IMG/VR virus record: IMGVR_UViG_3300015203_000010
Location: 1-54,037 of that record
Source: a virus
Taxonomy: Duplodnaviria > Caudoviricetes
Direction: 5' to 3' (one strand)
DNA: 54,037 nucleotides
Made by a program: the position numbers and the translations under genes. The notes under the pieces are model-generated. The model was not told where the DNA came from. It ran no database searches and saw nothing but the letters and a program-made list of their open reading frames with translations. Numbering within the stretch: position 1 is the first letter of the stretch; every line of letters starts with the position of its first letter. Shown here piece after piece: positions 3,771 to 21,778 of the stretch.

Positions 3771-3846
3771 TCCTCGATAGAGCAACCGGATAGCTCGACG
3801 TTCTTCTAAAACGCAGTTCCTGGTTCGAGTCCAGGTCGGGGAGCCA
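3771..3846 (+). tRNA. tRNA-Arg(TCT)
   Basis: acceptor TCCTCGA/TCGGGGA, D stem GAGC/GCTC, loop CTTCTAA, T arm CCTGG-TTCGAGT-CCAGG, encoded CCA. Confidence 0.9.
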
Positions 3847-5720: not shown

Positions 5721-5954
5721 ATGGGTGTTCGGATGACTAATCCTTTTGCATGGGCACCTGGATCAGAGCCAAAATATTTCGTTTGGGTTAACGAAAAAGG
5801 TACACCTTACCCACAACTTTGGTATGGTGAACGCGAAAAAATCCCTAGCGTTTTGTTCATCAAAAGGCTAGAACCAAAACACGAATCACTACCGTTCAAT
5901 GAACTTGTAAAATTGTTTCCCTACACTCCACCTAAACAGGAAAATGAGAAATGA
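5721..5954 (+). CDS. hypothetical protein
   Basis: ATGA overlap with next gene. Confidence 0.5.
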   Translation: MGVRMTNPFAWAPGSEPKYFVWVNEKGTPYPQLWYGEREKIPSVLFIKRLEPKHESLPFNELVKLFPYTPPKQENEK

Positions 5955-6208
5955 AAAAGCTAATCCTAATCGCTATTTTGCTTTCGACTTCCACCGCGTT
6001 CGCTCAGCAGGAAAAAGAATTTACCCTTAAGCTTAAGGGGTCGCAGGTTCAATTGCTTGGCGAAGCACTTGGCCTAATGCCTTATGGCAAGGTTGCTCCG
6101 TTTATGGGTGAATTGCAGCAACAGATTAATGCTCAGAATGTTGAGACACCTGTAGCGCCTCCCGCTGTGTCAATACCGGCACCGGCACCAGGGCCTGAGA
6201 AGAAGTAA
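5951..6208 (+). CDS. small secreted protein
   Basis: MKKLILIAILLSTSTAFA|QQ signal peptide, helical core, Pro-rich tail. Confidence 0.7.
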   Translation: MKKLILIAILLSTSTAFAQQEKEFTLKLKGSQVQLLGEALGLMPYGKVAPFMGELQQQINAQNVETPVAPPAVSIPAPAPGPEKK

Positions 6209-8564: not shown

Positions 8565-8792
8565 ATGACTGAGCCTCCCAATATGAATGGGCCTGAATCG
8601 GCTCCGCTTCGCAATTACATAAAGTCTTACGCTATAACGCTAAACATTTATGATGGCGAGGATAATCTAGTTAAGACTGAAAATCTCGATTACGGAAACT
8701 TCGAGCATAAGAAGTTTTTGGGTCGTTTAAGTTTTTGGGCCTGGGATTTGGGCTATACCGTCGAGACAATGGCTTATAAGAAGGTTGAATAG
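8565..8792 (+). CDS. hypothetical protein
   Basis: 75-aa ORF ending at tRNA start. Confidence 0.6.
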   Translation: MTEPPNMNGPESAPLRNYIKSYAITLNIYDGEDNLVKTENLDYGNFEHKKFLGRLSFWAWDLGYTVETMAYKKVE

Positions 8793-8869
8793 TCCCCATA
8801 GCCCAATCGGTAGCAGGCAAAGAACTTAAAATTCTTACAGTGTCAGTTCGAATCTGACTGGGGACACCA
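8792..8869 (+). tRNA. tRNA-Leu(TAA), short variable loop
   Basis: GTCCCCA/TGGGGAC acceptor, AAGAA-CTTAAAA-TTCTT anticodon arm, GTCAG-TTCGAAT-CTGAC T arm, A73, CCA. Confidence 0.9.
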
Positions 8870-8885: not shown

Positions 8886-9092
8886 ATGAAACACCACAAA
8901 TTCTCAGGCTCGCAGGCCATCGCTTCAATTAGGCACGATCCTTCCGCCAAGGTTTTAACCGTCAGTTTTCACTCAGGTTCTAGCCATGACTTTGCTGAAG
9001 TACCTGAAGAAATATTTGACGCGATGAAGGTTAGTGAGAGTGCGGGAAAGTTTTATCATAGTGAAGTGAAAAATAAATATAAGCCGGTTTAG
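8886..9092 (+). CDS. KTSC domain protein
   Basis: S.AIASI..D....LTVSF..G......VP...F......S.GKFY...VK..Y pattern. Confidence 0.85.
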   Translation: MKHHKFSGSQAIASIRHDPSAKVLTVSFHSGSSHDFAEVPEEIFDAMKVSESAGKFYHSEVKNKYKPV

Positions 9093-9158
9093 CTCAGCGG
9101 TAGCAGCAGCGTCTTTGTAAGGCGAGGGTCGGTGGTTCAACTCCATCAACCGGCACCA
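9083..9158 (+). tRNA. tRNA-Thr(TGT)
   Basis: GCCGGTT/AACCGGC acceptor, loop TTTGTAA, GGTGG-TTCAACT-CCATC T arm, ACCA end. Confidence 0.88.
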
Positions 9159-9583: not shown

Positions 9584-9623
9584 CCCCTGGCATAGTCCCC
9601 CACTGTGCCGGGGGAACTTTTTT
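9584..9623 (+). terminator. rho-independent terminator
   Basis: CCCCTGGCATAG/CTGTGCCGGGG hairpin followed by T run. Confidence 0.65.
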
Positions 9624-9671
9624 GTATTTGACACGTTGTAAACCAATCCCTCTTTTCAAAAGGAATTGGTC

Positions 9672-10256
9672 ATGAGCGACGTGCAGGAAGTTTCAAAGCC
9701 CTATGACGCCACTAATCCAGGCTATACGCCTCCCGCTGACTATAGAAAGCAGCCGGATTCGCAAGACGCTGGTATTAAGCCTGCCTATGCTTATTCCAAA
9801 AAGCCTTTTGTCGAAGCTACCAAGATTACCCCGGCAAAGTTTGTAGCGGTCAAAGGTGCGTTAGACCTTTCCAAGCCTGTTTACGAAACTCGCTATCCGT
9901 TCAATGATCTTGCTGTTGGCGATGGTTACTTTGTCGCTGACGATGATGTTATTGGTGACAGTATTGATTATTTACGCAAGGAAACTTATCGCGCTCGAAA
10001 TTATTATTCGATAGTAGAGCATGACGAAAACGGCGACGAAGTTTGGGAAACACTGACAATCAAGAATCGAAAGATTACAAACGGTAAGTTTGACCTTGAT
10101 GATGCTGGCAACTTTATTATGAGCGCCACGCAGGTTAGCCGTCCTAAGCTAATCTATTCTCGCCATTTCAGCGCGATTGCTGTTGAAAAGGATGCGGATA
10201 TGGGCAACGGTCAAAAGGCCCCCGCTGCTGGCGTACTTGTAATTCGCGAAGCTTAG
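9672..10256 (+). CDS. paralogue of 7866 DNA-binding protein
   Basis: YPFNDLAVGDGYFV, Y...TGE-like segment, RHF...V and APAAGVLVIR mirror the 7866 protein; TTGACA at 9628. Confidence 0.7.
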   Translation: MSDVQEVSKPYDATNPGYTPPADYRKQPDSQDAGIKPAYAYSKKPFVEATKITPAKFVAVKGALDLSKPVYETRYPFNDLAVGDGYFVADDDVIGDSIDYLRKETYRARNYYSIVEHDENGDEVWETLTIKNRKITNGKFDLDDAGNFIMSATQVSRPKLIYSRHFSAIAVEKDADMGNGQKAPAAGVLVIREA

Positions 10257-10268: not shown

Positions 10269-10302
10269 AGCCCCTGATGCTTTATTGCGTCAGGGGTTTT
10301 TC
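10269..10302 (+). terminator. rho-independent terminator
   Basis: AGCCCCTGATGC/GCGTCAGGGGTT followed by TTT. Confidence 0.7.
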
Positions 10303-10319: not shown

Positions 10320-11075
10320 ATGAAAAATTCTGGAATTTATCAAATTAAAAATACTGTCACCGATAAAATTTATATTGGTAGTACATTAAATTTTATTAAG
10401 CGTTGGAATATTCATAAACGTCAACTTAATAAAAATATCCACCACAGTATACATCTCCAACGCGCTTGGAATAAGTATGGCGCGGAAGCTTTTGAATTTT
10501 GTGTTATAGAATTTGTTAATGACAAAACAAAGTTGATAGAGCGTGAACAACTTTGGATGAATGGAACAGGCTGTTATTATAGAAACACAGGTTACAATTC
10601 AAATCCAACAGCAGGAAATTTATTAGGCTTTAAACATTCTGCTGAATCAAAATTAAAAATGTCAAAGTCTCAAACTGGAAAGAAACTTTCTCCAGAAGCA
10701 ATATTAAAACTTTCAATTAGAAATAAAACTTGTGGGATTAGACCGCCTTCTAATAAAGGTAAGCATCATTCCGAAGAAACTAAAATAAAGATTGCGCTCG
10801 CTCAGAAAGGTAAAATTATATCTGAAGAATCAAAAAGAAAAATGTCTTTATCGGCCACAGGGAAAATAATATCTGAGGCGGCTAGGCGAAATATGTCTTT
10901 GGGGCAAACAGGGCGCAAACATGCAAAAGATGAAGTATTAAAAAGAAGAAATTTTAACAAATGGCCTTGTGAACTTGGAAGTGATTGTAAGTGTATTACT
11001 TGCAAGGAAAGAAGAACTGTGTTTCAAAGAGAGTATAGAAAGAGTTTGAAGCAAAATGCCGTTCGGCTATCCTGA
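10320..11075 (+). CDS. GIY-YIG homing endonuclease with NUMOD3 repeats
   Basis: SGIYQI...IYIGS...RW..H; repeated H/I-SEE.K.KMS. Confidence 0.93.
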   Translation: MKNSGIYQIKNTVTDKIYIGSTLNFIKRWNIHKRQLNKNIHHSIHLQRAWNKYGAEAFEFCVIEFVNDKTKLIEREQLWMNGTGCYYRNTGYNSNPTAGNLLGFKHSAESKLKMSKSQTGKKLSPEAILKLSIRNKTCGIRPPSNKGKHHSEETKIKIALAQKGKIISEESKRKMSLSATGKIISEAARRNMSLGQTGRKHAKDEVLKRRNFNKWPCELGSDCKCITCKERRTVFQREYRKSLKQNAVRLS

Positions 11076-11595
11076 CATATTTCAAGTGTCTCCTTTGAAC
11101 CAAGATGTTGAAAAAAAACAACATTTTGGTCTAGAACTCGCTAAAAAACATCGCAATTCGTTTGAAGCGGCTTGTGTTGTATTTCCATCAGACCCAACTC
11201 GCGCTTTATGGATCGTCAACAATTGGATGAATGACCCGATTGTGACTGAGGCTCGCGAAACTTTAAAAGCAGCCGAATTAAACAAACCCATCCTTGACAA
11301 AGAACAACTTGCGGCTAAAGTGCTGCAATTCGCCGAAGAAAAGAATGCTGACGGCACAAAATATTTAGTTGAAGCCAAGGATCGAATTGTAGCATTGAAG
11401 CTGTATTCTGAAATTGCCGGTTATACTGGTAAAATTGACATTGATGCTTCAACGAAGAATTTCACTCATAACGAAATGGTAATTAAACTAGTAAAGCCTG
11501 ATGTTAAAAAAGAGGCTAAAGTTATAGAAGCAAAACCTATTGATGAAACTTTAATTGAAAATCCTTTACCTTTAAAAATAAAACTCGTTGGCTGA
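11056..11595 (+). CDS. terS: terminase small subunit (putative)
   Basis: helical protein with AKDRIVALKLYSEIAGY oligomerisation-like motif; first gene of late region. Confidence 0.55.
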   Translation: MPFGYPDIFQVSPLNQDVEKKQHFGLELAKKHRNSFEAACVVFPSDPTRALWIVNNWMNDPIVTEARETLKAAELNKPILDKEQLAAKVLQFAEEKNADGTKYLVEAKDRIVALKLYSEIAGYTGKIDIDASTKNFTHNEMVIKLVKPDVKKEAKVIEAKPIDETLIENPLPLKIKLVG

Positions 11596-11621
11596 TTCAT
11601 TTTAACACAGGAACTTTAATT

Positions 11622-12197
11622 ATGATTAAACGCATTTCTCTTAGTTTGATTGCTGTTTTTGTTGTTGCTGGTGTTGCTCTTGCTGCTGGACTTTGGGCCA
11701 ACTTTCCAATTGTCGGTGGTGCTTCGTATTCGTGCGGTAGCGTCAATGCCGTGAGCAACTGTACGGTTGCCGCTGGTCCAGTTCGCCTAACTGGCAATGA
11801 GACAATCCCGGCTGATACGAATTTGTCGAGCGGGCAGACTCCGCAGACCGTTTTGCTCAAGCCTGCTGTGCTTGGCGCTGGTCCGCATCAATACGCGGCT
11901 TCGTTGAATGGTGACACGGTTACACTGACTGGCCTTCAGCGTCGGCTTATCATTGAACCGGCTGGCACTATTGCCGGTCTGACTGTTGTGTTCCCTGCGG
12001 CTTCGACGCTGGTGGATAATCAGTTGCTTGGTATCTGCACCACGCAGATTATAACATCGCTTACGCTAACCGCTGGTTCGGGCACTACAATTCTCAATGG
12101 CCCAACAGCACTTCTTGTGCCGGTTACGACTGGTGGCGCTTCGTGTGTTGAGTGGGTTTATCGCCTTACAAACACGTCTTGGTATCGCGTACAGTAA
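11622..12197 (+). CDS. signal-peptide, Cys-paired beta-rich protein
   Basis: ...VAGVALA|AG; 4 Cys; LIIEPAGTIAGLTVVFP...WYR C-terminal fibre-tip-like domain. Confidence 0.75.
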   Translation: MIKRISLSLIAVFVVAGVALAAGLWANFPIVGGASYSCGSVNAVSNCTVAAGPVRLTGNETIPADTNLSSGQTPQTVLLKPAVLGAGPHQYAASLNGDTVTLTGLQRRLIIEPAGTIAGLTVVFPAASTLVDNQLLGICTTQIITSLTLTAGSGTTILNGPTALLVPVTTGGASCVEWVYRLTNTSWYRVQ

Positions 12198-12228
12198 TCG
12201 GGCGAAAGCCTAACAGGGATTTGCCCAC

Positions 12229-12936
12229 ATGAAACGTATACTTACTGTAATCGCGGCTTTGATTATCGGTACTACAGCAGTTAATGCCGCTGCACTTAGT
12301 AAATACCAGCCGGGTTTCCGGCTGGTTGACGGTTCGCAACTCAATTTGATGGTTGCTGCTGTCAATAACCTTACTGGTAATGGTACGGCTGGCCCGGTTA
12401 CTGCGACTAGCCTTAGTTATACCACTACTTTAACTGGTATTTCGGCAAACGCGGCTTGCTTGTCGGTTGGTCCCGCTGGTAATACGAATCCTTCGCTTAG
12501 GGTTGTTTGCTCTACTGCGTCGGCTGCTACTGGCTTGCAGGTCACAAGCGCGGCTGCCGCTGGCGGCGTAGCTCTTGCTACCATTTCGTCCGGCACGAAC
12601 GAAAACCTGACGATTGATGCCAAAGGTTCCGGCACTGTCACAATCAACGGCACTGGCACTGGCAACATTGTCATGGGTCGCGCTGTTACGGGCGTCTCTA
12701 CTTCACTCACTGGTGGTTTTACCGCCTATTCTGGCACGGCCACGCCTGCCGCTGCGTCGGCTGTAGCGGCTCTCACGATGGGTTCGGCTGGTATCACCCT
12801 CACTTGGGGCACCGGCACGCCTAGCATCGCCGCTCCACAGGGTTCTATTTATATTCAAACCGATGGTAGCTCTAGCTCGACTCGACTATTCGTTCGCGGA
12901 TCGTCTACCTGGATTGCTGTCACTACCGCTTCTTAA
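12229..12936 (+). CDS. signal-peptide, T/G/A/S-rich fibre-like protein
   Basis: ...TTAVNA|AA; LTIDAKGSGTV and GTGTPSIAAPQGSIYIQTDG fibre motifs; 2 Cys. Confidence 0.75.
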   Translation: MKRILTVIAALIIGTTAVNAAALSKYQPGFRLVDGSQLNLMVAAVNNLTGNGTAGPVTATSLSYTTTLTGISANAACLSVGPAGNTNPSLRVVCSTASAATGLQVTSAAAAGGVALATISSGTNENLTIDAKGSGTVTINGTGTGNIVMGRAVTGVSTSLTGGFTAYSGTATPAAASAVAALTMGSAGITLTWGTGTPSIAAPQGSIYIQTDGSSSSTRLFVRGSSTWIAVTTAS

Positions 12937-12961
12937 GTTTCTACGTAGCCTCCCCCAAACT

Positions 12962-12993
12962 TCCCGGCTGGTGAAAGCTGGCCGGGATTTTTT
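12962..12993 (+). terminator. rho-independent terminator
   Basis: TCCCGGCTGG/CTGGCCGGGA followed by TTTTT. Confidence 0.65.
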
Positions 12994-13005
12994 CTAGGAC
13001 AAGTC

Positions 13006-13335
13006 ATGGTTAAGTACACCAAAGCAACTGTGGCGGGAAAGGTTGTTTTTACCTGGAAATTAAAAGCAAACGAGTGTGGGGAATACGCTTTCGACACTCA
13101 GGATAGAATGAGTGTACAGTTATCAGGCTATTTCAACGGTGCCAAATGTGTTTTTGAAGGCACTAACGACAAAGATTTAGAGCCTTCTAAGCTTTATGTT
13201 GCTTTTGAAGGCGATTTTGATTTTACAAAACCTTCCATTAAATCCATTCCAGACGTTTCACTGCTTGTGCGCCCTAGAATTATAGGCGGCGACAAGAGTA
13301 CAGAAATCACAGTAACCCTTTTGATGGTGCCATAA
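13006..13335 (+). CDS. small all-beta putative virion protein
   Basis: SVQLSG.F.GA..VFEG.ND motif of small phage jelly-roll-like proteins. Confidence 0.55.
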   Translation: MVKYTKATVAGKVVFTWKLKANECGEYAFDTQDRMSVQLSGYFNGAKCVFEGTNDKDLEPSKLYVAFEGDFDFTKPSIKSIPDVSLLVRPRIIGGDKSTEITVTLLMVP

Positions 13336-13868
13336 TGAGCGCAGACGATGACGTTTTGCAGGGTTTGCGATTTATAAAACAATATTTAGGACCGCTAATC
13401 GCGGCGGTTCCTGAGTTTGAAAAGGTTACATCGCTTCAGAATCATATTGCTTCGTATGAAGCGCAGAATGAAGATTTGAAGAAAGTTAAAGCAGACTTAG
13501 AAAGAGCCGTTGAAAACCTGCAAGCCGAAGTCGAAAAGACTAAGGGTGAATTGGCTGTTGTCGAAGGCAAGTCGAATGATGTTGCTGCCTACATCAAAGG
13601 CAAGCAAAAAGAGGCCGACGACCATCTTTCCGGCATTGTCAATAACGCTTCATTGATTGCTGAAGAAAAAGCAACAAAAATTATTGAAGATGCGAAGATT
13701 GCGGCTAAAAAACTAACCAATACTACAAACGCAAATCTCGCTGCTACGTTGAAACAAATTGACGATGCAAACGCGAATTTGCAGTCAATCGTTGTTAAGA
13801 CTGCTGATGCTCAGGCTGCATTAGACAAAATCAATAAGATGCTCGATGCACTTCGACCAGGGAATTAA
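13335..13868 (+). CDS. coiled-coil protein
   Basis: long heptad-rich A/E/K/L helix; TAATG coupling. Confidence 0.7.
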   Translation: MSADDDVLQGLRFIKQYLGPLIAAVPEFEKVTSLQNHIASYEAQNEDLKKVKADLERAVENLQAEVEKTKGELAVVEGKSNDVAAYIKGKQKEADDHLSGIVNNASLIAEEKATKIIEDAKIAAKKLTNTTNANLAATLKQIDDANANLQSIVVKTADAQAALDKINKMLDALRPGN

Positions 13869-13871
13869 TCT

Positions 13872-14282
13872 ATGGCGAAAGGTATCGTTGAACGCATTCA
13901 TGGTGTTGGTGACCCGAATTTTCCAAGTCGGACTATTAAAGTTAATGCCGATGGTTCAATTAATGTAAATTCATTTGCACCTGTTGTCGCGACCGTTACA
14001 GATAAAAGTTTTGATCCCGATGGATCGAGTCATATTGTAATAGCGGCTAATGCGGCCAGATTAAATTATTTGATTTATAATCCTATTGATGTTTCTTTAA
14101 ATCCAAATGGCAACAGCGTTTTTATAAATCTTGGCGCATCTGCTACTTCTACTGGCAATAGTTTTGAAGTTACTCCTGGTGGTTATTTCCCCCCTCCTGG
14201 CATGCCTCTATATCTTGGTGATATTTATGCAATCGGTAACGCAACGATTACTTCGGTTGCAGCAAAAGAGTTTACAGCATGA
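13872..14282 (+). CDS. putative spike/fibre base protein
   Basis: IKVNADGSINV; IAANAAR..YLIYN...VFINLG...FEVTPGG beta-sandwich pattern. Confidence 0.55.
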   Translation: MAKGIVERIHGVGDPNFPSRTIKVNADGSINVNSFAPVVATVTDKSFDPDGSSHIVIAANAARLNYLIYNPIDVSLNPNGNSVFINLGASATSTGNSFEVTPGGYFPPPGMPLYLGDIYAIGNATITSVAAKEFTA

Positions 14283-15244
14283 AAAAATTAATTTTAATTT
14301 TTAGCTTGCTTTTATGTGGTTCGGCATTTGCTCAAAATAGCGGCGTACAAATTCAAGGCCCGTTTGCTGTTAATGATTGTACTCAAATTGTTAATCGGTT
14401 GCTTATTAAAAGTACAGGTGCGCCTTGTAGTAGTGGCACTCCTACTGGCGCTGCTGGTGGCAGCCTCAAAGGTACGTACCCCAACCCCGGTCTGGCCGAT
14501 GTAAACTCTATTGCGACTTCGCTCGCCATCGGCGGCGCGAGTGGGGTTCACGCCCTTAGCATATACGGTGGCCCCGGGGTCGCAGGCCCGCAAGCGGTAT
14601 TCTACCAAGATGGCGTTTCTATAGGCGGGATGCTGTCAAACAGTCAGTTGAATGGTGGAACGGGGAGTGACTTCGCCCTTGTCACTGGCGTAGGCCGGGG
14701 GCTGCACTTCTACACCAATGATGGTGCGGTCAACGTTGACCGCATGGCAATCACATCTGGCGGCAACGTCGGGATTGGGACGACGGGGCCTGGACAGAAA
14801 TTGGTCGTAGGTAACATAACAGGACAAAATACTCTGCGCATCAATGGTTTAAGTACAGCCGATATGGCTCCTGTACTTTCTTTGCTTCGGAGTGGCGCAC
14901 GGGAAGCAGTTATTGCTCAGACCCTTGGTGCAGGATTCGTTATCGCGAATACAGGCGGCCTTGCCAACTATAATGATGCAACAATTGATGCGGCGGCTAA
15001 CCTTGTTATCAATAACTTAGGCTACGTCGGCATCGGGACGACGGCGCCGAGCAGTACATTACAAGTCGCTGGTAATATTACCATCCCCGGCGCTGCTGCG
15101 CCGATTTTGACCACCGTCACCACCGTTACATCGGGTGCAGCCGCCGCAGTCGGTACGCTTACGAACGCTCCTGCTGCTGGTAATCCTACAAAGTGGATAC
15201 CGTTCAACGATGCTGGCGTAACGCGCTATATACCAGCTTGGTAA
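14279..15244 (+). CDS. signal-peptide fibre-like protein
   Basis: ...GSAFA|QN; GAAGGSLKGTYPNP; two G.VGIGTT.P fibre repeats; NAPAAGNPTKWIPF C-terminus. Confidence 0.8.
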   Translation: MKKLILIFSLLLCGSAFAQNSGVQIQGPFAVNDCTQIVNRLLIKSTGAPCSSGTPTGAAGGSLKGTYPNPGLADVNSIATSLAIGGASGVHALSIYGGPGVAGPQAVFYQDGVSIGGMLSNSQLNGGTGSDFALVTGVGRGLHFYTNDGAVNVDRMAITSGGNVGIGTTGPGQKLVVGNITGQNTLRINGLSTADMAPVLSLLRSGAREAVIAQTLGAGFVIANTGGLANYNDATIDAAANLVINNLGYVGIGTTAPSSTLQVAGNITIPGAAAPILTTVTTVTSGAAAAVGTLTNAPAAGNPTKWIPFNDAGVTRYIPAW

Positions 15245-15262
15245 GGGGTACGATTATAAGGA

Positions 15263-16819
15263 ATGCTTTTAATGAAATTCTTTCGTGAACTTTGGTTTGG
15301 TATTCCTCTTAGCCTAATTATTTGGGCTGTAATGTTTGTTGGCTATGCTAACGCAGCTTGCTCCGCTGGAAACTATTATACCACTACCGGAACGAATTGT
15401 ATTTTTGTTTCTCCTACAAACCCGTTGCCAACTACTTCCACATTCACACCTTCGGGAACGCAAGACGTTAATTTGACTAAAATTCTCGGTGCCGCGCCTT
15501 CGCTGACTAACCCTCTGTGGGTTTTTCCGGCGACTGGTGCGACGTTCCCAATTAGCGGGACTGTGAGTGCAACACAATCAGGCACTTGGACTGTGCAGCC
15601 GGGTAATACTGCCAATACAACGGCTTGGCTTGTGACTGGCACAGGTGGCACGTTTCCGGTCACAGGTACGTTTTGGCAAGCTACGCAGCCTGTTAGTGGT
15701 ACGTTTTGGCAGGCGACTCAGCCTGTAAGCGGCACCTTCTGGCAAGCTACGCAGCCAATTAGTGCTGCATCTTTACCGCTTCCCGCACTTGCTGCGACTT
15801 CTACAAAACAATCTGACGGTACTCAAAAAACGCAGATTGTTGATGGCTCCGGTAATGTCATTGGTGCTACTTCAAACGCATTAAACGTGAATATTTCATC
15901 CGGCTTTGGAACGACCATTGCAGTTACACAAAGCACAAGCCCTTGGGTTGTTTCAAATGGCGGCACGTTTGCTGTTCAAGCAACACTTAGCGCAGAAACA
16001 ACAAAGGTTATAGGTACAGTCAATCAAGGAACTAGCCCTTGGGTTGTTTCCGGCACTGTTACCGCAAACGCAGGTACTAATTTAAATACTTCGCTCTTGG
16101 CTTTGGAAAGCGGCGGCAATCTCGCTACGCTTGCTGGTGGAGTGACTGCTTCGGTTTATCAGCACAACACAAAGCAGATTAATGGTGTCGTTCCATTAAT
16201 GGGCAATGGTGTTACCGGCACAGGTTCGCAGCGCGTAACCATTGCGTCTGACAATACGGCGTTTTCGGTTAACGCTACGTTGTCGGCTGAAACGACAAAG
16301 GTAATTGGTACGGTTAACCAGGGTACAAGTCCTTGGGTTGTAGCTGGTGGAGGTACAGCGGGAAGCGCCGCCAGTGGCGTTGTTACTGTCCAAGGTATCG
16401 CGTCAATGACAGCCTTGGCAACCACGCTTCCTACAACTCCCGCCATCGCAAGTGGTTCGGGTGTTGTGCCTGCACCAAGTTCCGCCGCTGCTGCTGGCAT
16501 GGCAAACGTGGTTTCAACGGCTGCTGAATCAAATCATGTTCTTAAGGCGTCTGCTGGAAACCTGTACTCGTTAACGGCAACTATTGGCGCGACAAGCGGA
16601 TATTTGATGCTCTTTAATGCAACATCATTACCGGGAAACGGTGCTGTGACACCAGTAGGATGCTATCGAGTTTTGAGCGATGGTACGGCTGGCGGGATTA
16701 GCCTTCGGTGGGATTATCCGCTGGTATTTTCAACCGGCATCACGGCTGGATTTAGCACTACAGGTTGCTTCACGCTCACAGCGTCGGCTACGGGTAATTT
16801 CTTTGGGCAGATACAATAA
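15263..16819 (+). CDS. signal-peptide repetitive fibre-like protein
   Basis: hydrophobic leader ending YANA|AC; GTFWQATQPVS x3; SPWVV x3; C-terminal beta domain; 4 Cys. Confidence 0.8.
   Translation: MLLMKFFRELWFGIPLSLIIWAVMFVGYANAACSAGNYYTTTGTNCIFVSPTNPLPTTSTFTPSGTQDVNLTKILGAAPSLTNPLWVFPATGATFPISGTVSATQSGTWTVQPGNTANTTAWLVTGTGGTFPVTGTFWQATQPVSGTFWQATQPVSGTFWQATQPISAASLPLPALAATSTKQSDGTQKTQIVDGSGNVIGATSNALNVNISSGFGTTIAVTQSTSPWVVSNGGTFAVQATLSAETTKVIGTVNQGTSPWVVSGTVTANAGTNLNTSLLALESGGNLATLAGGVTASVYQHNTKQINGVVPLMGNGVTGTGSQRVTIASDNTAFSVNATLSAETTKVIGTVNQGTSPWVVAGGGTAGSAASGVVTVQGIASMTALATTLPTTPAIASGSGVVPAPSSAAAAGMANVVSTAAESNHVLKASAGNLYSLTATIGATSGYLMLFNATSLPGNGAVTPVGCYRVLSDGTAGGISLRWDYPLVFSTGITAGFSTTGCFTLTASATGNFFGQIQ
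15656..15763 (+). repeat. 33-bp in-frame tandem repeat (3 copies, degenerate third positions)
   Basis: encodes (PV[TS]GTFWQATQ)x3. Confidence 0.85.
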
Positions 16820-17400
16820 TGCGTAAAATAATTTATGGACTACTGTTAGCTTTTGGAATTGTTGCGCTGGCGAATGCTCAGTACGTGAGCCAAGTCGTCA
16901 CTGCGGCCTGTACGGCCTTCGGCACCACGTCCGGTACTTGTATCCAAGGCGCTGGTGCGCTCGGCACACCATCGTCCGGCACGGCGACAAATTTAACCGG
17001 ATTGCCGTTGACTACGGGTGTGACTGGGACGCTTCCGGTTGCTAATGGCGGGACAAACGATACGGGGACAGGATGGACTTCTTATACAGCTACAGCTACT
17101 TGCGGCACTGGAACTGCTACCGGAACAGGCTGGTATAAAGCTATCGGTAAAACTGTTTTTGTTGTTATAAATATTAATGACTCCGGTACTTGCTTGGTGT
17201 CTTTGACTGTAGCTTTACCAGTAGCGATTAACGCTACAATTGGTGCTGTAATTAGCGGTACAAACATAGCGAGCGGTATTGCTCAGTATGGATATGGTGG
17301 AGCTACATTTTCTGTACTTACAGTTTTATCAGCTACGGGTGCTTTTCCTTTTGCTGCTGGCCAAAATGTTATAATCAGTGGCGTTTATTGGTCGTCTTAA
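16819..17400 (+). CDS. signal-peptide fibre-like protein
   Basis: ...ALANA|QY; LGTPSSGTATNLTGLPLTTGVTGTLPVANGGT fibre motif; 4 Cys. Confidence 0.78.
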   Translation: MRKIIYGLLLAFGIVALANAQYVSQVVTAACTAFGTTSGTCIQGAGALGTPSSGTATNLTGLPLTTGVTGTLPVANGGTNDTGTGWTSYTATATCGTGTATGTGWYKAIGKTVFVVININDSGTCLVSLTVALPVAINATIGAVISGTNIASGIAQYGYGGATFSVLTVLSATGAFPFAAGQNVIISGVYWSS

Positions 17401-17422
17401 ATCCTTTGAAAAATTATGAATT

Positions 17423-18121
17423 ATGGAAGTAGGTTTTCCCAAATCTGGAATTTACGCAATACTGAATACGGTAAATGATAAACTGTATGTTGGAAGTGCT
17501 GTAAATTTTAAACGTCGCTGGTCTAAACATATTCGTTATTTAAATAATAAAATTCATCCGAATAAGTTTCTCGAAAATTCTTGGCATAAACACGGACAGC
17601 AAAATTTTATCTTTGTTATCTTGGAAATTTGTCTTGTGCGAGAAAATTTAATCAAGCGTGAGCAGCACTGGATCAATCTTACTAAGTGCTACGAAAGGGA
17701 ATTAGGTTACAACATTTGTAGAGTGGCCGAAACTAGACTCGGTACTATACATACCGACGAAGCTAAAAAGAAAATGTCCATTTCTCGAAAAGGCCGCGTT
17801 GTCTCTGTTGAGACGCGCGCCAAAATTGCAGCGGCTCATAAAGGTAAAATTATATCTGAGGAGACTAGACTAAAATTGAGCATTGCTAATAAGGGCTGCA
17901 TTGTCTCGCAAGAGACTCGTGTTAATATGGCAAAAGGACAAACTGGCCGCAAACACTCAGAAGAAAGTAAATTAAAAAGGTCGGTGATTTTAAAAGGAAA
18001 ACCATTTCCTAATCCTAAAAAAGACCCACGACACTCAGAAGCTACAAAACTAAAACAATCCATCGCTAGGAAAAAATATTTAGAAAAACTAAACGGTGGT
18101 TGGTCAACCACATGGAAATAA
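17423..18121 (+). CDS. GIY-YIG homing endonuclease with NUMOD3 repeats
   Basis: SGIYAI...LYVGS...RW..H; HSEE repeats. Confidence 0.93.
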   Translation: MEVGFPKSGIYAILNTVNDKLYVGSAVNFKRRWSKHIRYLNNKIHPNKFLENSWHKHGQQNFIFVILEICLVRENLIKREQHWINLTKCYERELGYNICRVAETRLGTIHTDEAKKKMSISRKGRVVSVETRAKIAAAHKGKIISEETRLKLSIANKGCIVSQETRVNMAKGQTGRKHSEESKLKRSVILKGKPFPNPKKDPRHSEATKLKQSIARKKYLEKLNGGWSTTWK

Positions 18122-19464
18122 ATTTCCCACAGAAATTGACTTTTCTTTTAGACAGCCCCGCACGATACAAGGTATTGTGGGGAGGCCGTGGCGGTATGAA
18201 AACCGAAACTATGGCCATGGCTTTAATTATTTTGACTACTCAAAAAAAATTGAGAATAGCTTGTTTTAGAGAATTACAAAATTCAATTGAAGAATCTGTA
18301 TATGAAACTATTAAAAATAGAATTTCTGATATGGATTTGGAAGATGAATTTGTTATTCAATCTCGCACAATAGTATCAAAACGCACAGGCTCAGAATTTA
18401 TATTTTCTGGATTAAGATATAATATCAATAAAATTAAAAGTATGGCGCGCATTGACATAGCGTGGGTAGAAGAAGCCGTCAATGTAACAAAAATGTCCTG
18501 GGACAAATTAGCGCCAACAATTCGTGGACGGCATGAAGATGACCCAAATGGAATGGGTGGTCCTTTTGGTCTAGGCCCGGAAATTTGGATTTCATATAAT
18601 CCTGAGACGGATCAAGATGAAACTTATAAAAGATTTTATTTACAACGAGATAAATTTGCTCCTGATTTTGATAAAAACGGTGAACGCTTTGCGTATGTAG
18701 TTAAAGTTGGATGGGAAGATAACCCTTGGTTTCCGCCAGACCTTCGACGCGAAATGGAAATATTAAAGTTGGCTGATGAAACAGCTTGGCTAAATGTTTG
18801 GCAAGGAAATACTCGGCAAACTCTCGACGGCGCTATTTTTGCAAAGGAAATTAAAACGGTATTGCTAGAAGGCCGTCGCGGCAAAGTGCCTTACGATTCT
18901 TCACGTCCCGTTCACACTTTTTGGGACCTCGGTCATTCCGATCACACAGCTATTTGGTTTGTGCAGCAAGTCGGTATGGAATACAATATTATAAATTACT
19001 ATCAGGATCATCTTCAAAAAATTGGATTTTATTTAGAGTATCTGCAATCTCAAAAATATATGTACGGCAAGCATTACTTGCCGCATGACGCTGATAATGA
19101 AACTTTGGCTAGTCGAAGCATTGCTAAGATTGTTAGAGAGACTTACCCTAACAGCGTTAAGCTTGTGCCGCGCATTGCTAAGAAAGTTTTGGGTATCAAC
19201 GCGAGTAGAACAGTTTTTGATTTATGTAATTTTGACGAAGAAAACACTAGTGACGGCTGGCAATGTCTTTGCCGCTATCAGTACGATGTAAATGCAGAGA
19301 CAGGGCAATTTAGCCGTGAGCCTGCCCACAACGAATATTCGCACGGCGCTGACGCCTTCCAAACCTTCGCTCTATCTTTAAAATCTGAGACAGCTACCAA
19401 AAAACATGTTAAGTCGTCCACTAACGTAATTCCTATGCGTAACGCAAACAATTGGATGGCGTGA
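18112..19464 (+). CDS. terL: terminase large subunit (PBSX-like)
   Basis: Walker A GGRGGMKT, RELQNSI, Walker B AWVEEA, nuclease WDLG and SHGADAF. Confidence 0.95.
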   Translation: MEINFPQKLTFLLDSPARYKVLWGGRGGMKTETMAMALIILTTQKKLRIACFRELQNSIEESVYETIKNRISDMDLEDEFVIQSRTIVSKRTGSEFIFSGLRYNINKIKSMARIDIAWVEEAVNVTKMSWDKLAPTIRGRHEDDPNGMGGPFGLGPEIWISYNPETDQDETYKRFYLQRDKFAPDFDKNGERFAYVVKVGWEDNPWFPPDLRREMEILKLADETAWLNVWQGNTRQTLDGAIFAKEIKTVLLEGRRGKVPYDSSRPVHTFWDLGHSDHTAIWFVQQVGMEYNIINYYQDHLQKIGFYLEYLQSQKYMYGKHYLPHDADNETLASRSIAKIVRETYPNSVKLVPRIAKKVLGINASRTVFDLCNFDEENTSDGWQCLCRYQYDVNAETGQFSREPAHNEYSHGADAFQTFALSLKSETATKKHVKSSTNVIPMRNANNWMA

Positions 19465-19468
19465 TCTA

Positions 19469-21778
19469 ATGTCCGACGAAGAAATTGTTATTGAAGCAAA
19501 AAAGCGATTTAATACCTGTGAAGAATGGGAAGCTCCCACTCGTCGCTTATTCGATTACGATTACAAATTTGCCAATGGTGATTCCCATAATTTGTATCAA
19601 TGGGATAACCGCATTTCGTCTGACCGCTTTGTTAACAATCGTCCTGTGTTGACTGTCAATAAAGTCAATCAGCATAATTTAATGGTTATCAATGACGCCA
19701 AGCAAAACAAACCGGGTGTGAACATTCGTCCGGTTGGCGAAGCTGCAAGCTTTGAAGCCGCACAGGTTTTTCAAGGTATTGTTAGGCACATTGAATATAT
19801 TTCAAACGCCGAAAGCGTTTATGACCACGCCACAACATTTCAGGTTGAAGCTGGTATAGGCTACTGGCGCGTTCAAACCGATTATATGTCGCCAAAGTCT
19901 TTCGACCAGGAAATTTATATTCGGTCAATTAAAGACCCGCGTTCGGTTTATCTTGACCCTGATATTAATGAGGAAGATGGGTCTGACGCGCGTTTCGGTT
20001 TTATCTTTGAAGATATGCCGAAAGATTTGTATGATGACAAATATCCCGAATTTAAAGATTTGGGTTGGGCAACTACATTTAATCAAAAGCCTGATATGTG
20101 GCTAACACGCGATTTGGTTCGCGTTGCCGAATACTATCGCAAGACTCAGAAAAAAGATAAATACGTTTATTTCGTCAATCCACAAAGCGGCGAAGCTGTT
20201 CAAAAGTTTTTGAGTGAATTAGAGCCTGACGAAAAGGCACTGTACACTCAAATTAAAAAAAGTGAAAGCCAAATACCGGAAACGATGCGCTCTTATAAAG
20301 AGCGTAAGATTCTGACTGACAATATTGAATGGTTCAAGATCGCTGGCAACACGATTATTGATCGTGGCCCTTGGCTTGGTAAATATATTCCGATTGTTCG
20401 CTTAGTCGGTACGGAAACAATTATTGATGGCATTATGGACCGCAAGGGCCATACTCGCGCATTGATTGACCCACAGAAAATCTATAATTGGAACACCAGC
20501 GCAAACCAGGAATACGGAGCGCTGCAAACCAAGTCGCCTTATATTGCTGCTACAAAAGCAATTGAAGGTTACGAAGAAATTTATAAAACCGCTAACACGG
20601 TTAATCATTCCTACATTCCATATAACTCGCTTGACGAAGATGGCAACGTAATTCCGCCTCCACAGCGTAACCCGCCTCCTACGGGTTCGCCTGCTTATAT
20701 GGATCAACTAAAAATTTCTGAAAATGAAATGATGGCTGCCAGCGGGCAGTATCAAGCCCAAATGGGTGAAAATGAAAATGCAAAATCTGGCGTTGCTATT
20801 AATGCTCGTCAACGGCAAGGCGATAGAGCAACATATCACTTCATTGACAACAATGCCAAAGCCATTCGCTTTACCGGAAAGATTTTAATTGATTTGATTC
20901 CGAAAGTTTATGATACCAAGCGAGTTATGCAGATTTCGGCTAGTGACGGTAGCATGATGGACGTTACCGTTGATCCTGAAGCACAAGAAGCATTTCAAAA
21001 GCAACAGCCGGGGCCGGAAGGTCCGGTTATGGATAAGGGGCAAGAAATTGCTCAGATTATTTTTAATCCTAATATTGGCACTTACGATATTCATTCTGAA
21101 GTCGGGCCTTCTTATGCTACACGCCGTCAAGAGGCTTTCAACGCTCTTACTCAGATTGCCGCTCAGAATAAAGAATTTATGGGTGTTGCTGGCGACATTC
21201 TTTGGAAGGTTGCGGACTTCCCCGAAGCACAGGTACTCGCGGAACGCTGGCGCAAGATTATCCCGCCAAACATTACGGGAGATACACCTAACCCACAAAT
21301 TGAACAGGCGATGCACGCGGCGTCTGATAAAATCGAGCAACAGCTTGCACTTATCGCGCAACAGCAAAAGGAGTTGGCTGACAAGGAAATGGAGTTTAAA
21401 ATCAAGAGTCTTGAAGCTGATACCAAGTATAAAACGGCATTGGCTGATGCTTCACGTCTCGATTATGAAGCTGAGACAAAACGCCTAGTCGCCTTGGGTA
21501 ATTCTGGCCCTGCTATTGCTATGGAGCAAATTCAACCTGTTCTTAAACAATTGTTGGCTGGCATGATTCAAAACGGTGAATTGATTGTCAATCAACCGGG
21601 TGTCAATGAAGGCGGTACGCCTGTGCCTAGCGGGGAAGCGCCAACGGAAGGCGAGGAAGCCGCGCCTGAGCCGCAGGAACAACCGCCTGTGCCGGGGGCA
21701 AAACTCGCACCTGACGGTAATCACTACGTTCCAGACCCTAACCGCGAAGGTAAATATTTAAGGGTCGATAATGCCTGA
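19469..21778 (+). CDS. portal protein (P22 gp1-like)
   Basis: follows terL; RPVLTVN, GIGYWRV, SGVAINARQRQG, DI..EVGPSYATRRQE motifs. Confidence 0.92.
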   Translation: MSDEEIVIEAKKRFNTCEEWEAPTRRLFDYDYKFANGDSHNLYQWDNRISSDRFVNNRPVLTVNKVNQHNLMVINDAKQNKPGVNIRPVGEAASFEAAQVFQGIVRHIEYISNAESVYDHATTFQVEAGIGYWRVQTDYMSPKSFDQEIYIRSIKDPRSVYLDPDINEEDGSDARFGFIFEDMPKDLYDDKYPEFKDLGWATTFNQKPDMWLTRDLVRVAEYYRKTQKKDKYVYFVNPQSGEAVQKFLSELEPDEKALYTQIKKSESQIPETMRSYKERKILTDNIEWFKIAGNTIIDRGPWLGKYIPIVRLVGTETIIDGIMDRKGHTRALIDPQKIYNWNTSANQEYGALQTKSPYIAATKAIEGYEEIYKTANTVNHSYIPYNSLDEDGNVIPPPQRNPPPTGSPAYMDQLKISENEMMAASGQYQAQMGENENAKSGVAINARQRQGDRATYHFIDNNAKAIRFTGKILIDLIPKVYDTKRVMQISASDGSMMDVTVDPEAQEAFQKQQPGPEGPVMDKGQEIAQIIFNPNIGTYDIHSEVGPSYATRRQEAFNALTQIAAQNKEFMGVAGDILWKVADFPEAQVLAERWRKIIPPNITGDTPNPQIEQAMHAASDKIEQQLALIAQQQKELADKEMEFKIKSLEADTKYKTALADASRLDYEAETKRLVALGNSGPAIAMEQIQPVLKQLLAGMIQNGELIVNQPGVNEGGTPVPSGEAPTEGEEAAPEPQEQPPVPGAKLAPDGNHYVPDPNREGKYLRVDNA

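What the first reader, a model, noticed from the sequence alone, without database searches (positions are those of the whole stretch)
11622..17400. Cluster of Sec-exported, disulfide-paired fibre/spike proteins inserted between terS and terL
Seen: eight genes separate the putative terS from terL. Five of them (11622, 12229, 14279, 15263, 16819) begin with classic signal peptides ending A-x-A. Their mature regions are T/G/A/S-rich, carry tail/head-fibre motifs (G.VGIGTT.P, GTLPVANGGT, GTGTP...GSIY) and contain 4, 2, 2, 4 and 4 Cys, mostly in close pairs. Three signal-less genes (two small beta proteins, one coiled coil) sit in the middle. Established: tailed-phage virions assemble in the cytoplasm and fibres normally lack signal peptides, while disulfides form in the periplasm via Dsb. 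Inference: this may be an undescribed split-compartment assembly system, in which cytoplasmic base proteins dock on the capsid and periplasmically folded appendages attach at or after lysis. An alternative is a secreted receptor-masking or adhesin system.
Basis: partly seen in the sequence, partly recalled or inferred. Interest (0 to 1): 0.88.

Follow-up and report, generated by a model that had tools for sequence, protein, structure and literature searches.

The report
Exported, disulfide-paired phage fibre gene cluster
An uncultured soil phage with a short P22-type tail encodes, between its two DNA-packaging genes, five fibre-like proteins that carry bacterial export signals and paired cysteines, so they almost certainly fold outside the cytoplasm where tailed-phage particles are built.

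Summary
Between terS (11056-11595) and terL (18100-19464) lie eight co-directional genes plus a GIY-YIG homing endonuclease. Five genes have Sec-type leaders and 4, 2, 2, 4 and 4 cysteines in the mature part.

The export signature is evolutionary, not chance:
- g1 has at least 265 homologues. All 120 examined keep a leader and exactly four Cys.
- Signal-less relatives of g1 and g8 lack the Cys pairs.

The proteins are real fibre parts:
- The C-domain of g1 has the T4 gp10-like hub fold (Z 8-9) and models as a trimer.
- g6, g7 and g8 are mosaics of modules shared with ordinary signal-less fibres.

In relatives (TerL 40-68% identical), g1 always follows terS. The cassette behind it varies from 0.8 to 8.4 kb.

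It gains plausibility from two cultured Cellulophaga phages: their records list proteins with such leaders as virion components found by MS/MS. The main rival is an envelope-acting role without virion attachment.

Seven literature searches found no description of this route. This scan has noted the same theme on other DNA at least eight times.

The parts
10320..11075 (+). GIY-YIG/NUMOD3 homing endonuclease ORF; its end overlaps the terS start (context)
   Evidence: Pfam PF01541 2.1e-12, PF07460 6.4e-13
11056..11595 (+). terminase small subunit (terS)
   Evidence: phrog_5334 1e-13; 48-53% identical terS precedes g1 in relatives
11622..12197 (+). g1: conserved exported hub. Leader (cleavage about ALA|AG), an N-terminal Cys38-Cys47 pair, then a gp10-like C-domain (86-191) holding Cys139/Cys175
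   Evidence: At least 265 homologues. 120 of 120 have a leader and 4 Cys. AF2 pLDDT 81.6. VIA Z 9.0/8.7/8.1 to the KP1 baseplate, CBA120 TSP4 79-176 and the Pa223 capsid spike. Trimer model 0.87 against 0.00 for the controls.
12229..12936 (+). g2: exported T/G/A/S-rich fibre-like protein (leader VNA|AA, Cys77/Cys94)
   Evidence: Its mature N-terminus (YQPGFRLVDGSQLN) recurs in an SP+ protein of L001 and looks by eye like the N-termini of signal-less 131-141-aa proteins of L085-L087 and L091.
12962..12987 (+). strong terminator-like hairpin (11-bp stem, T-run) between g2 and g3
13006..13335 (+). g3: signal-less 109-aa beta protein
   Evidence: ESM Atlas: nearest clusters are viral hypothetical proteins, TM 0.91-0.93; no Pfam or PHROG hit
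13335..13868 (+). g4: signal-less 177-aa coiled-coil protein; its start overlaps the g3 stop
   Evidence: only sub-threshold coiled-coil matches; junction -1 nt
13872..14282 (+). g5: signal-less 136-aa jelly-roll protein with an N-terminal arm
   Evidence: AF2 pLDDT 90.6. VIA Z 9.0, rmsd 2.3, 82 aligned to the PM2 spike P1 receptor-binding domain; cupins at Z 6-7. 46 relatives in the representative library.
14279..15244 (+). g6: exported mosaic fibre (leader AFA|QN, Cys34/Cys50), two VGIGTT motifs and a conserved roughly 40-aa C-terminal tail ending YIPAW
   Evidence: phrog_9942 tail fiber 7.3e-9. Only partial matches to 477 proteins. 95 of the 120 listed share the tail, and 6 of those have a leader.
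15263..16819 (+). g7: exported 518-aa fibre (probable start 15272; leader ANA|AC; Cys pairs 33/46 and 467/502), with a 3 x 11-aa GTFWQATQPVS repeat
   Evidence: Relatives on 144 of 153 candidate stretches in IMG/VR. 14 of the 70 matching ORFs pass the strict leader test.
16819..17400 (+). g8: exported 193-aa fibre-tip ('knob'-type) protein (leader ANA|QY, Cys31/41 and Cys95/125); its start overlaps the g7 stop
   Evidence: 1195 homologues, 120 listed, 15 flagged SP+ and all with even Cys counts. The Cys95/125 pair is enriched in SP+ homologues.
17423..18121 (+). second GIY-YIG/NUMOD3 homing endonuclease ORF; its end overlaps the terL start (context)
   Evidence: PF01541 3.3e-15, PF07460 5.6e-14
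18100..19464 (+). terminase large subunit (terL)
   Evidence: PF04466 1e-36; phrog_3717 2.3e-49

Best explanation
The cluster is a late-expressed cassette of trimeric fibre or spike proteins. They are sent through the Sec pathway and stabilised by disulfide bonds outside the cytoplasm.

g1 is the conserved core. It consists of a cleavable leader, a small Cys loop and a T4 gp10-like trimeric 'hub' domain. It always lies directly after terS in this phage lineage. Behind it comes a lineage-variable set of mosaic fibres (here g2, g6, g7 and g8) and three signal-less small proteins (g3, g4 and g5).

Most likely course:
1. The genes are transcribed with the packaging and head genes.
2. The five precursors are exported and cleaved by signal peptidase I.
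3. They are oxidised and trimerise in the periplasm.
4. They meet the cytoplasm-built P22-type particles only when holin and endolysin lysis mixes the compartments.
5. They then dock as extra host-recognition appendages, with g1 as the adaptor.

Shown: the leaders, the link between leader and cysteines, the fibre and hub folds, and the conserved position. Inferred: export itself, leader cleavage, disulfide formation, and above all attachment to the virion.
For: Leaders and cysteines
- Leaders sit on 5 of 8 cluster genes against 5 of 71 other ORFs (p = 5e-4).
- In the g1 family, 120 of 120 listed homologues keep a leader and exactly 4 mature Cys. The leader sequence itself drifts.
- Natural controls: 7 of 7 signal-less homologues of the g1 C-domain have no Cys at the positions of Cys139 and Cys175.
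- In the g8 family, 15 of 15 SP+ homologues have even Cys counts, against 71 of 105 SP- homologues (p = 0.006). The Cys95/125 pair is in 4 of 14 SP+ and 3 of 100 SP- homologues (p = 0.004).

Fibre nature
- The g1 C-domain matches gp10-like docking domains: Z 9.0 (rmsd 2.4, 91 aligned), Z 8.7 and Z 8.1.
- The same domain ends signal-less fibre proteins of alphaproteobacterial MAGs.
- The g1 homotrimer model scores 0.87, best of 3 controls 0.00. That mark was reached by 20 of 30 proteins solved as pairs of one chain and by 1 of 23 solved as single chains. The runs agree in at least 60% of contacts and partner pLDDT is at least 76. Caveats: my own alignment and three copies differ from the calibration, and solved gp10-like trimers exist, so the pass may reflect likeness.
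- g6 hits tail-fibre PHROGs and shares its C-tail with 95 of 120 listed proteins.

Late operon
- Same strand as terS and terL, with junctions of -4 to +31 nt except one 69-nt gap that holds a terminator-like hairpin.
- No integrase or repressor match among the 30 proteins outside the cluster scanned with PHROGs.

Conserved layout
- terS then g1 in six relatives (L085-L088, L090 = G001, and, by my reading of its ORFs, L091). In L089 g1 lies 0.8 kb before terL, but no terS match was found.
- The gap from g1 to terL ranges from 0.8 to 8.4 kb.

Virion precedent
- Cellulophaga phage phi10:1 gp091-094 and phi18:3 gp085-087 have the same kind of leader. Their records annotate them as virion proteins 'based on experimental MS/MS proteomics'.

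From my own knowledge, not a call: P22 tailspikes add to finished heads in vitro, so attachment after lysis is physically possible.
Against: - No experiment bears on this phage. It is a soil metagenome contig with an unknown host.
- SignalP was not run. Leader calls rest on my own heuristic.
- The phage already has an ordinary tail module with a 1005-aa collar-domain fibre at 37131-40148. The cluster is therefore not needed to explain adsorption.
- No docking site on the particle was identified. The signal-less trio g3-g5 was not seen in the closest relative.
- Three relatives carry a polytopic membrane protein with a weak Wzy_C match in the same cassette. This hints at an envelope-directed rather than a virion role.
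- The Cellulophaga proteins are not homologous to these. tblastn of g1, g6 and g7 against GenBank phages found nothing. Their Cys counts are not paired. Proteins in a virion preparation may also be co-purified contaminants.
- One SP- g8 homologue (P0266) carries the Cys pair. One SP+ homologue (P0334) was missed by my heuristic.
Confidence: 0.45

Rival explanations
1. The proteins are exported but never join the virion. They act on the infected cell's envelope or its surroundings. Possible roles: masking the receptor so that progeny or competing phages do not adsorb to the cell or its debris, or serving as secreted adhesins or lectins.
For: - The export signature is as strong as above.
- The particle has its own tail fibre gene.
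- In L085, L086 and L087 the same cassette holds a polytopic membrane protein with a weak O-antigen-ligase-type match (Wzy_C, E 0.002, 18.4 bits, below the 31.7 cut-off) followed by a small protein. Such enzymes act on the envelope.
- Bdellovibrio MAT fibres show that phage-like trimeric fibres with leaders work as cell-surface adhesins (passages of PMC10769870).
Against: - Masking would need one binder. It would not need a conserved hub plus four or more long variable fibres that take about 11% of the genome (5.8 of 54 kb).
- g1 is conserved at 55-89% identity. That is at or above TerS (48-53%) and TerL (40-68%) between the same relatives. This suggests a fixed protein partner rather than a variable host surface.
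- The genes sit in the late packaging operon, not among early genes.
- No lipobox or membrane anchor is present to retain the proteins.
- Leader-bearing fibre proteins were detected in virions of two cultured phages.
Confidence: 0.3
2. The N-terminal hydrophobic segments are not cleaved export signals. The proteins are ordinary cytoplasmic virion fibres, or are held at the inner membrane by an uncleaved anchor.
For: - No signal-peptide predictor and no experiment was available.
- Homologous modules occur mostly in signal-less fibres: 113 of 120 g6 hits and 105 of 120 g8 hits.
Against: - All five have a basic n-region, a hydrophobic core of about 10-18 residues and a small-x-small site.
- The feature is kept in 120 of 120 g1 homologues while the sequence drifts.
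- Strict Cys pairing appears only together with the leader. That has no rationale in a reducing cytoplasm.
Confidence: 0.1
3. The cassette is selfish or neutral cargo. It would have been carried in with the flanking homing endonucleases and have no role for the phage.
For: - GIY-YIG/NUMOD3 genes flank terS and the cluster on both sides.
- Distant relatives have terS abutting terL (H66), or only small ORFs before terL (MW202674).
Against: - g1 sits at the same place in relatives down to 40% TerL identity, with or without endonucleases.
- At least 265 homologues are under clear purifying selection.
- The junctions are tightly coupled.
Confidence: 0.05

Closest known systems
Branched receptor-binding complexes built on T4 gp10-like domains (CBA120 TSP4 N-terminal XD domains, T4 gp10, Klebsiella phage KP1 baseplate)
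   Same: The g1 C-domain has this fold: Z 8.7-9.0, about 91 residues aligned at rmsd 2.4-2.8. It models as a trimer. As in those systems, a conserved adaptor is followed by variable fibres.
   Different: g1 carries a leader and four invariant Cys and is only 170 residues when mature. It is encoded between terS and terL of a short-tailed phage. No binding to other fibres or to a particle was tested. That these domains serve as docking hubs is my own knowledge, not a call.
Leader-bearing virion proteins of Cellulophaga phages phi10:1 (gp091-094) and phi18:3 (gp085-087)
   Same: Both are runs of consecutive fibre, lyase or tail proteins with classic leaders in a tailed phage. In phi18:3 they lie upstream of the terminase, with the lysis genes between. 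The records annotate them as found in virions by MS/MS.
   Different: There is no detectable sequence homology. The host is a Bacteroidota bacterium. Their Cys counts are not paired (0-3). I found no published discussion of their leaders; the original paper is not in the searchable library.
Bdellovibrio bacteriovorus MAT (mosaic adhesive trimer) fibres (PMC10769870, passages read)
   Same: In both, a leader is followed by a conserved beta-rich N-terminal domain. Then comes a trimeric phage-like fibre with swappable tips. Both form families of many mosaic paralogues.
   Different: MATs are chromosomal genes of a predatory bacterium and are displayed on its own surface. Here the genes lie in a phage late operon. 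I did not compare the sequences or folds directly.
Phage receptor-masking and exclusion proteins (T5 Llp, Cor) and envelope morons (lambda Lom, Bor); recalled, not from a call
   Same: These are phage-encoded proteins with export signals that act at the host envelope.
   Different: They are single small lipoproteins or outer-membrane proteins without fibre modules. None of the five proteins here has a lipobox.

Membership tests
Sec / signal peptidase I substrates | Basic n-region, hydrophobic h-region of about 7-15 residues, and small residues at -3 and -1 of the c-region | tested here: met
   My own heuristic on g1, g2, g6, g7 and g8; kept in 120 of 120 g1 homologues. SignalP was not available.
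Sec / signal peptidase I substrates | Actual translocation and leader cleavage | not testable with these tools
   Needs PhoA fusions or N-terminal sequencing.
Disulfide-bonded extracytoplasmic proteins | Even, conserved Cys counts that depend on the presence of a leader | tested here: met
   g1: 4 Cys in 120 of 120 homologues, and none at the two C-domain positions in 7 of 7 SP- homologues. g8: even counts in 15 of 15 SP+ against 71 of 105 SP- homologues.
Disulfide-bonded extracytoplasmic proteins | Cys pairs adjacent in the 3D structure | not testable with these tools
   Model coordinates are not exposed to scripts.
T4 gp10-like (XD) fibre-docking domain | The fold | tested here: met
   VIA Z 9.0, 8.7 and 8.1, with rmsd 2.4-2.8 over 89-92 residues. 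Foldseek gave only weak E-values (5e-3 and worse, probabilities 0.92-1.0).
T4 gp10-like (XD) fibre-docking domain | Homotrimer | tested here: met
   The model supports it: 0.87 against a best control of 0.00, with the caveats given by the tool.
T4 gp10-like (XD) fibre-docking domain | Binds N-termini of other fibres or the baseplate | not tested
Bacterial lipoproteins (Llp/Cor-type exclusion proteins) | Lipobox L-[ASTVI]-[GAS]-C at the cleavage site | tested here: not met
   By eye, none of the five leaders has a lipobox. g6 reads LLLC and g7 NAAC, which do not fit. The consensus is recalled.
Bdellovibrio MAT fibres | Conserved N-terminal domain of about 130 aa after the leader that is homologous among members | not tested
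   Only passages of PMC10769870 were read. No MAT sequence was fetched.
O-antigen ligase / Wzy_C family (membrane protein in the cassettes of relatives L085-L087) | Pfam PF04932 above its gathering score | tested here: inconclusive
   E 0.002 at 18.4 bits against a 31.7 cut-off. No NCBIfam hit. No PDB sequence hit.
Trimeric autotransporter adhesins | C-terminal beta-barrel membrane anchor | tested here: inconclusive
   No Pfam family at all at E <= 0.1 on the five proteins. The folds of their C-termini were not modelled.

The most novel reading that the evidence does not exclude
Many soil tailed phages would build their particles in two compartments. Heads and tails form in the cytoplasm. A conserved trimeric hub (the g1 family, at least 265 clusters) and a swappable set of disulfide-bonded fibres fold in the periplasm, in some relatives perhaps glycosylated there by a phage-encoded ligase-like enzyme. 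These parts would snap onto the particle only at lysis. Host-range hardware would then depend on the host's Sec and Dsb systems.
Probability: 0.4. Interest if true: 0.9.

Novelty: new variant of a known kind. Interest (0 to 1): 0.72.

Why it matters
Textbook tailed-phage assembly is wholly cytoplasmic. Fibre proteins that must pass through Sec and be oxidised in the periplasm would add a compartment, and host factors such as SecYEG, LepB and DsbA/B, to phage morphogenesis and host-range determination.

It would also explain a widespread class of unannotated genes. The g1 family alone has at least 265 clusters. Runs of 2-6 leader-bearing fibre genes occur in many unrelated IMG/VR contigs.

The finding matters for engineering or expressing such receptor-binding proteins, which would misfold in the cytoplasm. 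It also matters for predicting virion proteins from sequence.

If the proteins instead stay off the virion, they would be a new kind of phage-secreted adhesin or masking system.

Tried and rejected
Sequence and family searches
- Megablast of 11000-19500 against GenBank phages: no match.
- tblastn of g7, g1 and g6 against GenBank phages: no match. The low-complexity filter may contribute.
- Pfam and NCBIfam on the eight proteins: nothing above threshold.
- Foldseek of the g1 model against PDB: no hit at E <= 0.001.
- PDB sequence search with the Wzy-like alignment: 0 hits.
- g3 in IMG/VR: no relative. g5 in IMG/VR: 3 weak loci with uninformative neighbours.
- BFVD matches of g5: all uncharacterised proteins.
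- ESM Atlas leads for g3 and g5 (XepA, DUF6385, PRD1 P5 N-domain) were each carried by a minority or a far cluster. I did not pursue them.
- Comparison of the cluster proteins with the rest of the window gave no significant paralogy (E > 0.1). The script stopped with an index error after g6, so g7 and g8 were not reached. There is thus no evidence that the exported proteins copy the virion's own fibre tip.

Literature and expression
- Seven full-text searches found no paper on leader-bearing tailed-phage fibres. A hit in PMC12923769 was only a reference-list title.
- Supplements of papers were closed. Virion proteome tables that might list such proteins could not be seen.
- Sequencing runs: only one soil DNA run, possibly the source, holds the stretch, and no RNA holder is listed.
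- This scan's notes hold nothing on this genome or on look-alikes of it.

Readings rejected
- Lysogenic-conversion moron: no lysogeny gene was found among 30 proteins scanned outside the cluster.
- Spanin: no membrane or lipoprotein pairing, and the genes lie far from the endolysin at 40133.
- Type IV pilin: no G|F-x-x-x-E leader seen (motif recalled).

Full report
**What the window is.** The window is a whole IMG/VR virus record of 54,037 bp, classed as linear and estimated 95% complete. The only sequencing run found to hold the stretch is a soil metagenome, which may be its source.

PHROG and Pfam scans give a short-tailed, P22-type structural module:
- terS 11056-11595
- terL 18100-19464
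- portal 19469-21778
- scaffold 25290
- major head protein 26373
- adaptor 27861
- gp10-type head-closure/tail protein 29560
- a small protein matching 'short tail fiber protein'/'tail fiber adhesin' PHROGs at 31841 (where P22 has its needle gene)
- ejection proteins 32281 and 34714
- a 1005-aa tail protein with a collar domain at 37131
- endolysin 40133

The other arm carries a family-A DNA polymerase, a helicase, a processivity factor, a Cas4-type exonuclease and a Sak4-type annealing protein. None of the 30 proteins scanned outside the cluster matched an integrase or repressor, so I read the phage as probably virulent. The closest GenBank phages share at most 45% TerL identity.

A simple n/h/c-region test flags 11622, 12229, 14279, 15263 and 16819. 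Predicted sites are ALA|AG, VNA|AA, AFA|QN, ANA|AC and ANA|QY. This is 5 of 8 genes, against 5 of 71 other non-overlapping ORFs (p = 5e-4).

Mature Cys counts are 4, 2, 2, 4 and 4, at positions 38/47/139/175, 77/94, 34/50, 33/46/467/502 and 31/41/95/125. The mature parts are 43-58% T+G+A+S and 2-7% charged residues.

Three corrections apply:
- A ninth ORF before terL (17423-18121) is a GIY-YIG/NUMOD3 homing endonuclease. A second one (10320-11075) overlaps the terS start.
- g7 most likely starts at its second ATG (15272), 9 nt after an AAGGA.
- g6 has a third Cys inside the leader.

**Are the leaders real?** The best evidence is comparative.

g1 has at least 265 homologues, all unnamed and without a Pfam domain. 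Their contigs are no longer than about 60 kb. In all 120 listed, my test finds a leader and the mature part has exactly four Cys. In a 38-sequence alignment the leader varies freely in sequence but keeps its character, while Cys139 and Cys175 are invariant.

Nature supplies the control. The g1 C-domain also ends signal-less proteins in soil alphaproteobacterial MAGs. These are three long fibre proteins (L093, L094, L097) and four small proteins (L095, L096, L098, L099). In all 7 of these, neither Cys position holds a Cys. L092, a distant leader-bearing homologue, also lacks that pair but keeps an N-terminal pair.

g8 behaves the same way. It has 1195 homologues, of which 120 are listed. Fifteen pass the leader test, and all 15 have an even number of mature Cys. 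Among the 105 without a leader, 71 have even counts (p = 0.006). The Cys95/125 pair is present in 4 of 14 leader-bearing and 3 of 100 leader-less aligned homologues (p = 0.004). Of the three exceptions, one (P0334) clearly has a leader that my threshold missed. One (P0260) looks N-terminally truncated. One (P0266) is a true counter-example.

A leader that comes and goes together with cysteine pairs is what export into an oxidising compartment predicts. A reducing cytoplasm does not predict it.

**Are they fibres?**

*g1.* The AF2 model (pLDDT 81.6) has a C-domain (residues 86-191) that matches gp10-like docking domains:
- Klebsiella phage KP1 baseplate: Z 9.0, rmsd 2.4, 91 aligned
- CBA120 TSP4 residues 79-176: Z 8.7
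- Pseudomonas phage Pa223 capsid spike: Z 8.1
- an Acinetobacter phage tailspike: Z 7.8

The next unrelated rows fall to Z 6 and below. Foldseek alone was weak.

Three copies of mature g1 model as a trimer. The score is 0.87 and the best of 3 controls is 0.00. That mark was reached by 20 of 30 proteins solved as pairs of one chain and by 1 of 23 solved as single chains. The runs agree in at least 60% of contacts and partner pLDDT is at least 76. My own alignment and three copies differ from the calibration, and solved gp10-like trimers exist, so the pass may reflect likeness.

*g6.* It hits tail-fibre PHROGs (7.3e-9). As a whole it is unique, a mosaic of parts. Its last 40 or so residues (…NAPAAGNPTKWIP.ND.G.TRYIPAW) recur at the C-terminus of 95 of the 120 listed hits, and only 6 of those have a leader.

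*g7.* It shares its repeats (3 x GTFWQATQPVS, encoded by a 33-bp tandem repeat) and other segments with ORFs on 144 of 153 candidate IMG/VR stretches. Of 70 matching ORFs, 14 pass the strict leader test and about five more are near misses.

*g8.* One of its homologues is named 'pyocin knob domain-containing protein' by NCBI.

So the same modules exist in ordinary cytoplasmic fibres and, in a minority, behind leaders.

**The signal-less trio.**
- g5 folds confidently (pLDDT 90.6) as a jelly-roll with an N-terminal arm. The best match is the receptor-binding domain of the PM2 spike P1 (Z 9.0, rmsd 2.3, 82 aligned). Cupins follow at Z 6-7, so this is a common fold.
- g3 resembles small viral beta proteins.
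- g4 is a coiled coil.
- g3/g4, g4/g5 and g5/g6 are separated by -1, +3 and -4 nt, which suggests coupled translation.

Nothing shows that these proteins sit on the capsid.

**Context in relatives.**

| Locus | TerL identity | g1 identity | Layout |
|---|---|---|---|
| L085 | 59% | 60-61% | terS, g1, then 7 kb to terL |
| L086 | 59% | 60-61% | terS, g1, then 2.2 kb to terL |
| L087 / L088 | 59% | 60-61% | terS, g1, then 2.4 kb to terL |
| L089 | 40% | 58% | g1, then 0.8 kb to terL; no terS match found |
| G001 (= L001/L090) | 68% | 53% | terS, g1, then about 8.4 kb across the contig junction |
| L091 | – | 51% | g1 before the packaging genes; its ORF at 1686-2213 reads like a terS, though it matched no window protein |

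The table draws.

In these relatives too, the proteins behind g1 mostly carry leaders:
- G001: every cassette ORF with a visible N-terminus, that is g1, proteins of 175, 160, 1275 and 102 aa, and one of 534 aa by eye. A Cys-rich ORF of at least 267 aa runs off the contig end.
- L085: five, of 140, 58, 350, 339 and 835 aa.
- L087: one, of 167 aa.
- L089: one, of 185 aa.

L085, L086 and L087 also hold a polytopic membrane protein with a weak O-antigen-ligase-type match (Wzy_C, E 0.002, below threshold). It has no NCBIfam or PDB match. A small protein follows it.

In more distant phages terS abuts terL (H66), or only small ORFs precede terL (MW202674). The picture is a conserved exported hub plus a swappable cassette.

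In unrelated IMG/VR contigs, leader-bearing g7-like genes also come in runs of two to six. Examples are L004, L007, L036, L047 (next to a terS) and L078.

**Expression signals.** All genes are on the strand of the packaging genes. A strong terminator-like hairpin (11-bp stem plus a T-run) lies at 12962-12987, between g2 and g3. It may set off terS-g1-g2 as a highly expressed unit. This is inference only. No RNA data set was found.

**How it most likely works.**

Shown: the leaders, the link between leader and cysteines, the fibre and hub folds, the modelled g1 trimer, the late-operon position, and the conserved terS-g1 linkage.

Inferred: Sec export, cleavage, Dsb oxidation and trimerisation in the periplasm.

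The open step is what happens next. I favour attachment to particles at lysis (0.45), for four reasons:
- A conserved gp10-type hub followed by variable fibres is the architecture of virion receptor-binding complexes (own knowledge of CBA120, G7C and T4).
- g1 is as conserved as, or more conserved than, the terminase subunits between the same relatives. This points to a fixed protein partner.
- The cassette costs about 11% of the genome.
- Two cultured Cellulophaga phages give a precedent. This lead came from earlier notes of this scan and I checked it myself. phi10:1 gp091-gp095 and phi18:3 gp085-gp087 have the same kind of leader. The records annotate gp091-094 and gp085-087 as virion proteins 'based on experimental MS/MS proteomics analysis'.

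P22 tailspikes join heads in vitro (own knowledge), so docking after lysis is feasible.

Against this reading:
- The particle already has a fibre gene.
- No socket was found.
- The Cellulophaga proteins are not homologues and lack paired Cys.
- The Wzy-like gene in relatives hints at an envelope role.

The main rival (0.30) is export without virion attachment, for receptor masking or as adhesins like the Bdellovibrio MAT fibres (passages of PMC10769870).

**Known or new?** Seven full-text searches found no description of leader-bearing fibres of tailed phages or of periplasmic maturation of virion parts. The 2013 Cellulophaga paper is not in the searchable library, and supplements were closed.

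This scan has noted the same theme on at least eight other stretches of DNA. None of those is a look-alike of this window.

What this window adds:
- the g1 hub family with its fixed position after terS;
- two natural SP-plus/SP-minus comparisons that tie cysteine pairs to the leader;
- the variable-cassette picture.

I rate it a new variant of a known kind: phage fibres rerouted through the export pathway.

Noticed in passing
window 10320-11075, 17423-18121 and 28890-29552: Three homing-endonuclease-type ORFs sit inside the structural operon. Two are GIY-YIG/NUMOD3 genes whose ends overlap the starts of terS and terL. One is an HNH endonuclease between the adaptor and the gp10-type gene. Relatives carry GIY-YIG genes at other places (L001 5427-6032, L086 10637-11233).
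   Followed up: partly
L085 5376-6750; L086 1541-3002; L087 2981-4361: In three relatives, g1 is followed directly by a polytopic membrane protein of about 360-395 aa with a weak Wzy_C (O-antigen ligase/polymerase) match, and then by a protein of about 155 aa. This could mean periplasmic glycosylation of the exported fibres or O-antigen modification. The layout recalls pilin genes followed by their O-glycosylase (recalled).
   Followed up: partly
window 15120-15244 (C-terminus of g6): A C-terminal module of about 40 residues ending ...TRYIPAW is up to about 90% identical across fibre-like proteins from soil, marine and other metagenomes (95 of 120 hits). It looks to me like a foldon-type trimerisation or docking tag (recalled resemblance, not tested). 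The g2 C-terminus (APQGSIYIQTDG...W) has a similar flavour.
   Followed up: partly
window 1594-2007, 2985-3401, 5951-6208 and 42500-43027: Four more small ORFs outside the cluster have leader-like N-termini. The 5951 leader is nearly identical to that of g6 (13 of 19 residues). None has a Pfam hit. The phage thus seems to encode nine exported proteins in all.
   Followed up: partly
window 12962-12987, 9584-9614 and 10269-10298: Three strong terminator-like hairpins lie on the + strand. One splits the cluster after g2. The other two bracket the 196-aa ORF at 9666-10256, which gives a weak, sub-threshold DUF7303 match.
   Followed up: no
window 3771-3846, 8792-8869 and 9083-9158: Three tRNA genes: Arg-TCT, Leu-TAA and Thr-TGT.
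   Followed up: no
L092 (contig binned in a Terriglobales MAG): This 7.6-kb contig carries a leader-bearing g1 homologue (34% identity) and a portal 37% identical to the window's. It is a weak hint that acidobacteria may host related phages; it could equally be a binning artefact.
   Followed up: no
window 21771-24005: A 744-aa ORF overlaps the portal stop by 8 nt. It has only a weak match to part of a giant PHROG 'endolysin' family. It is conserved at 35% identity in L086 and L089. Its function is unknown.
   Followed up: no
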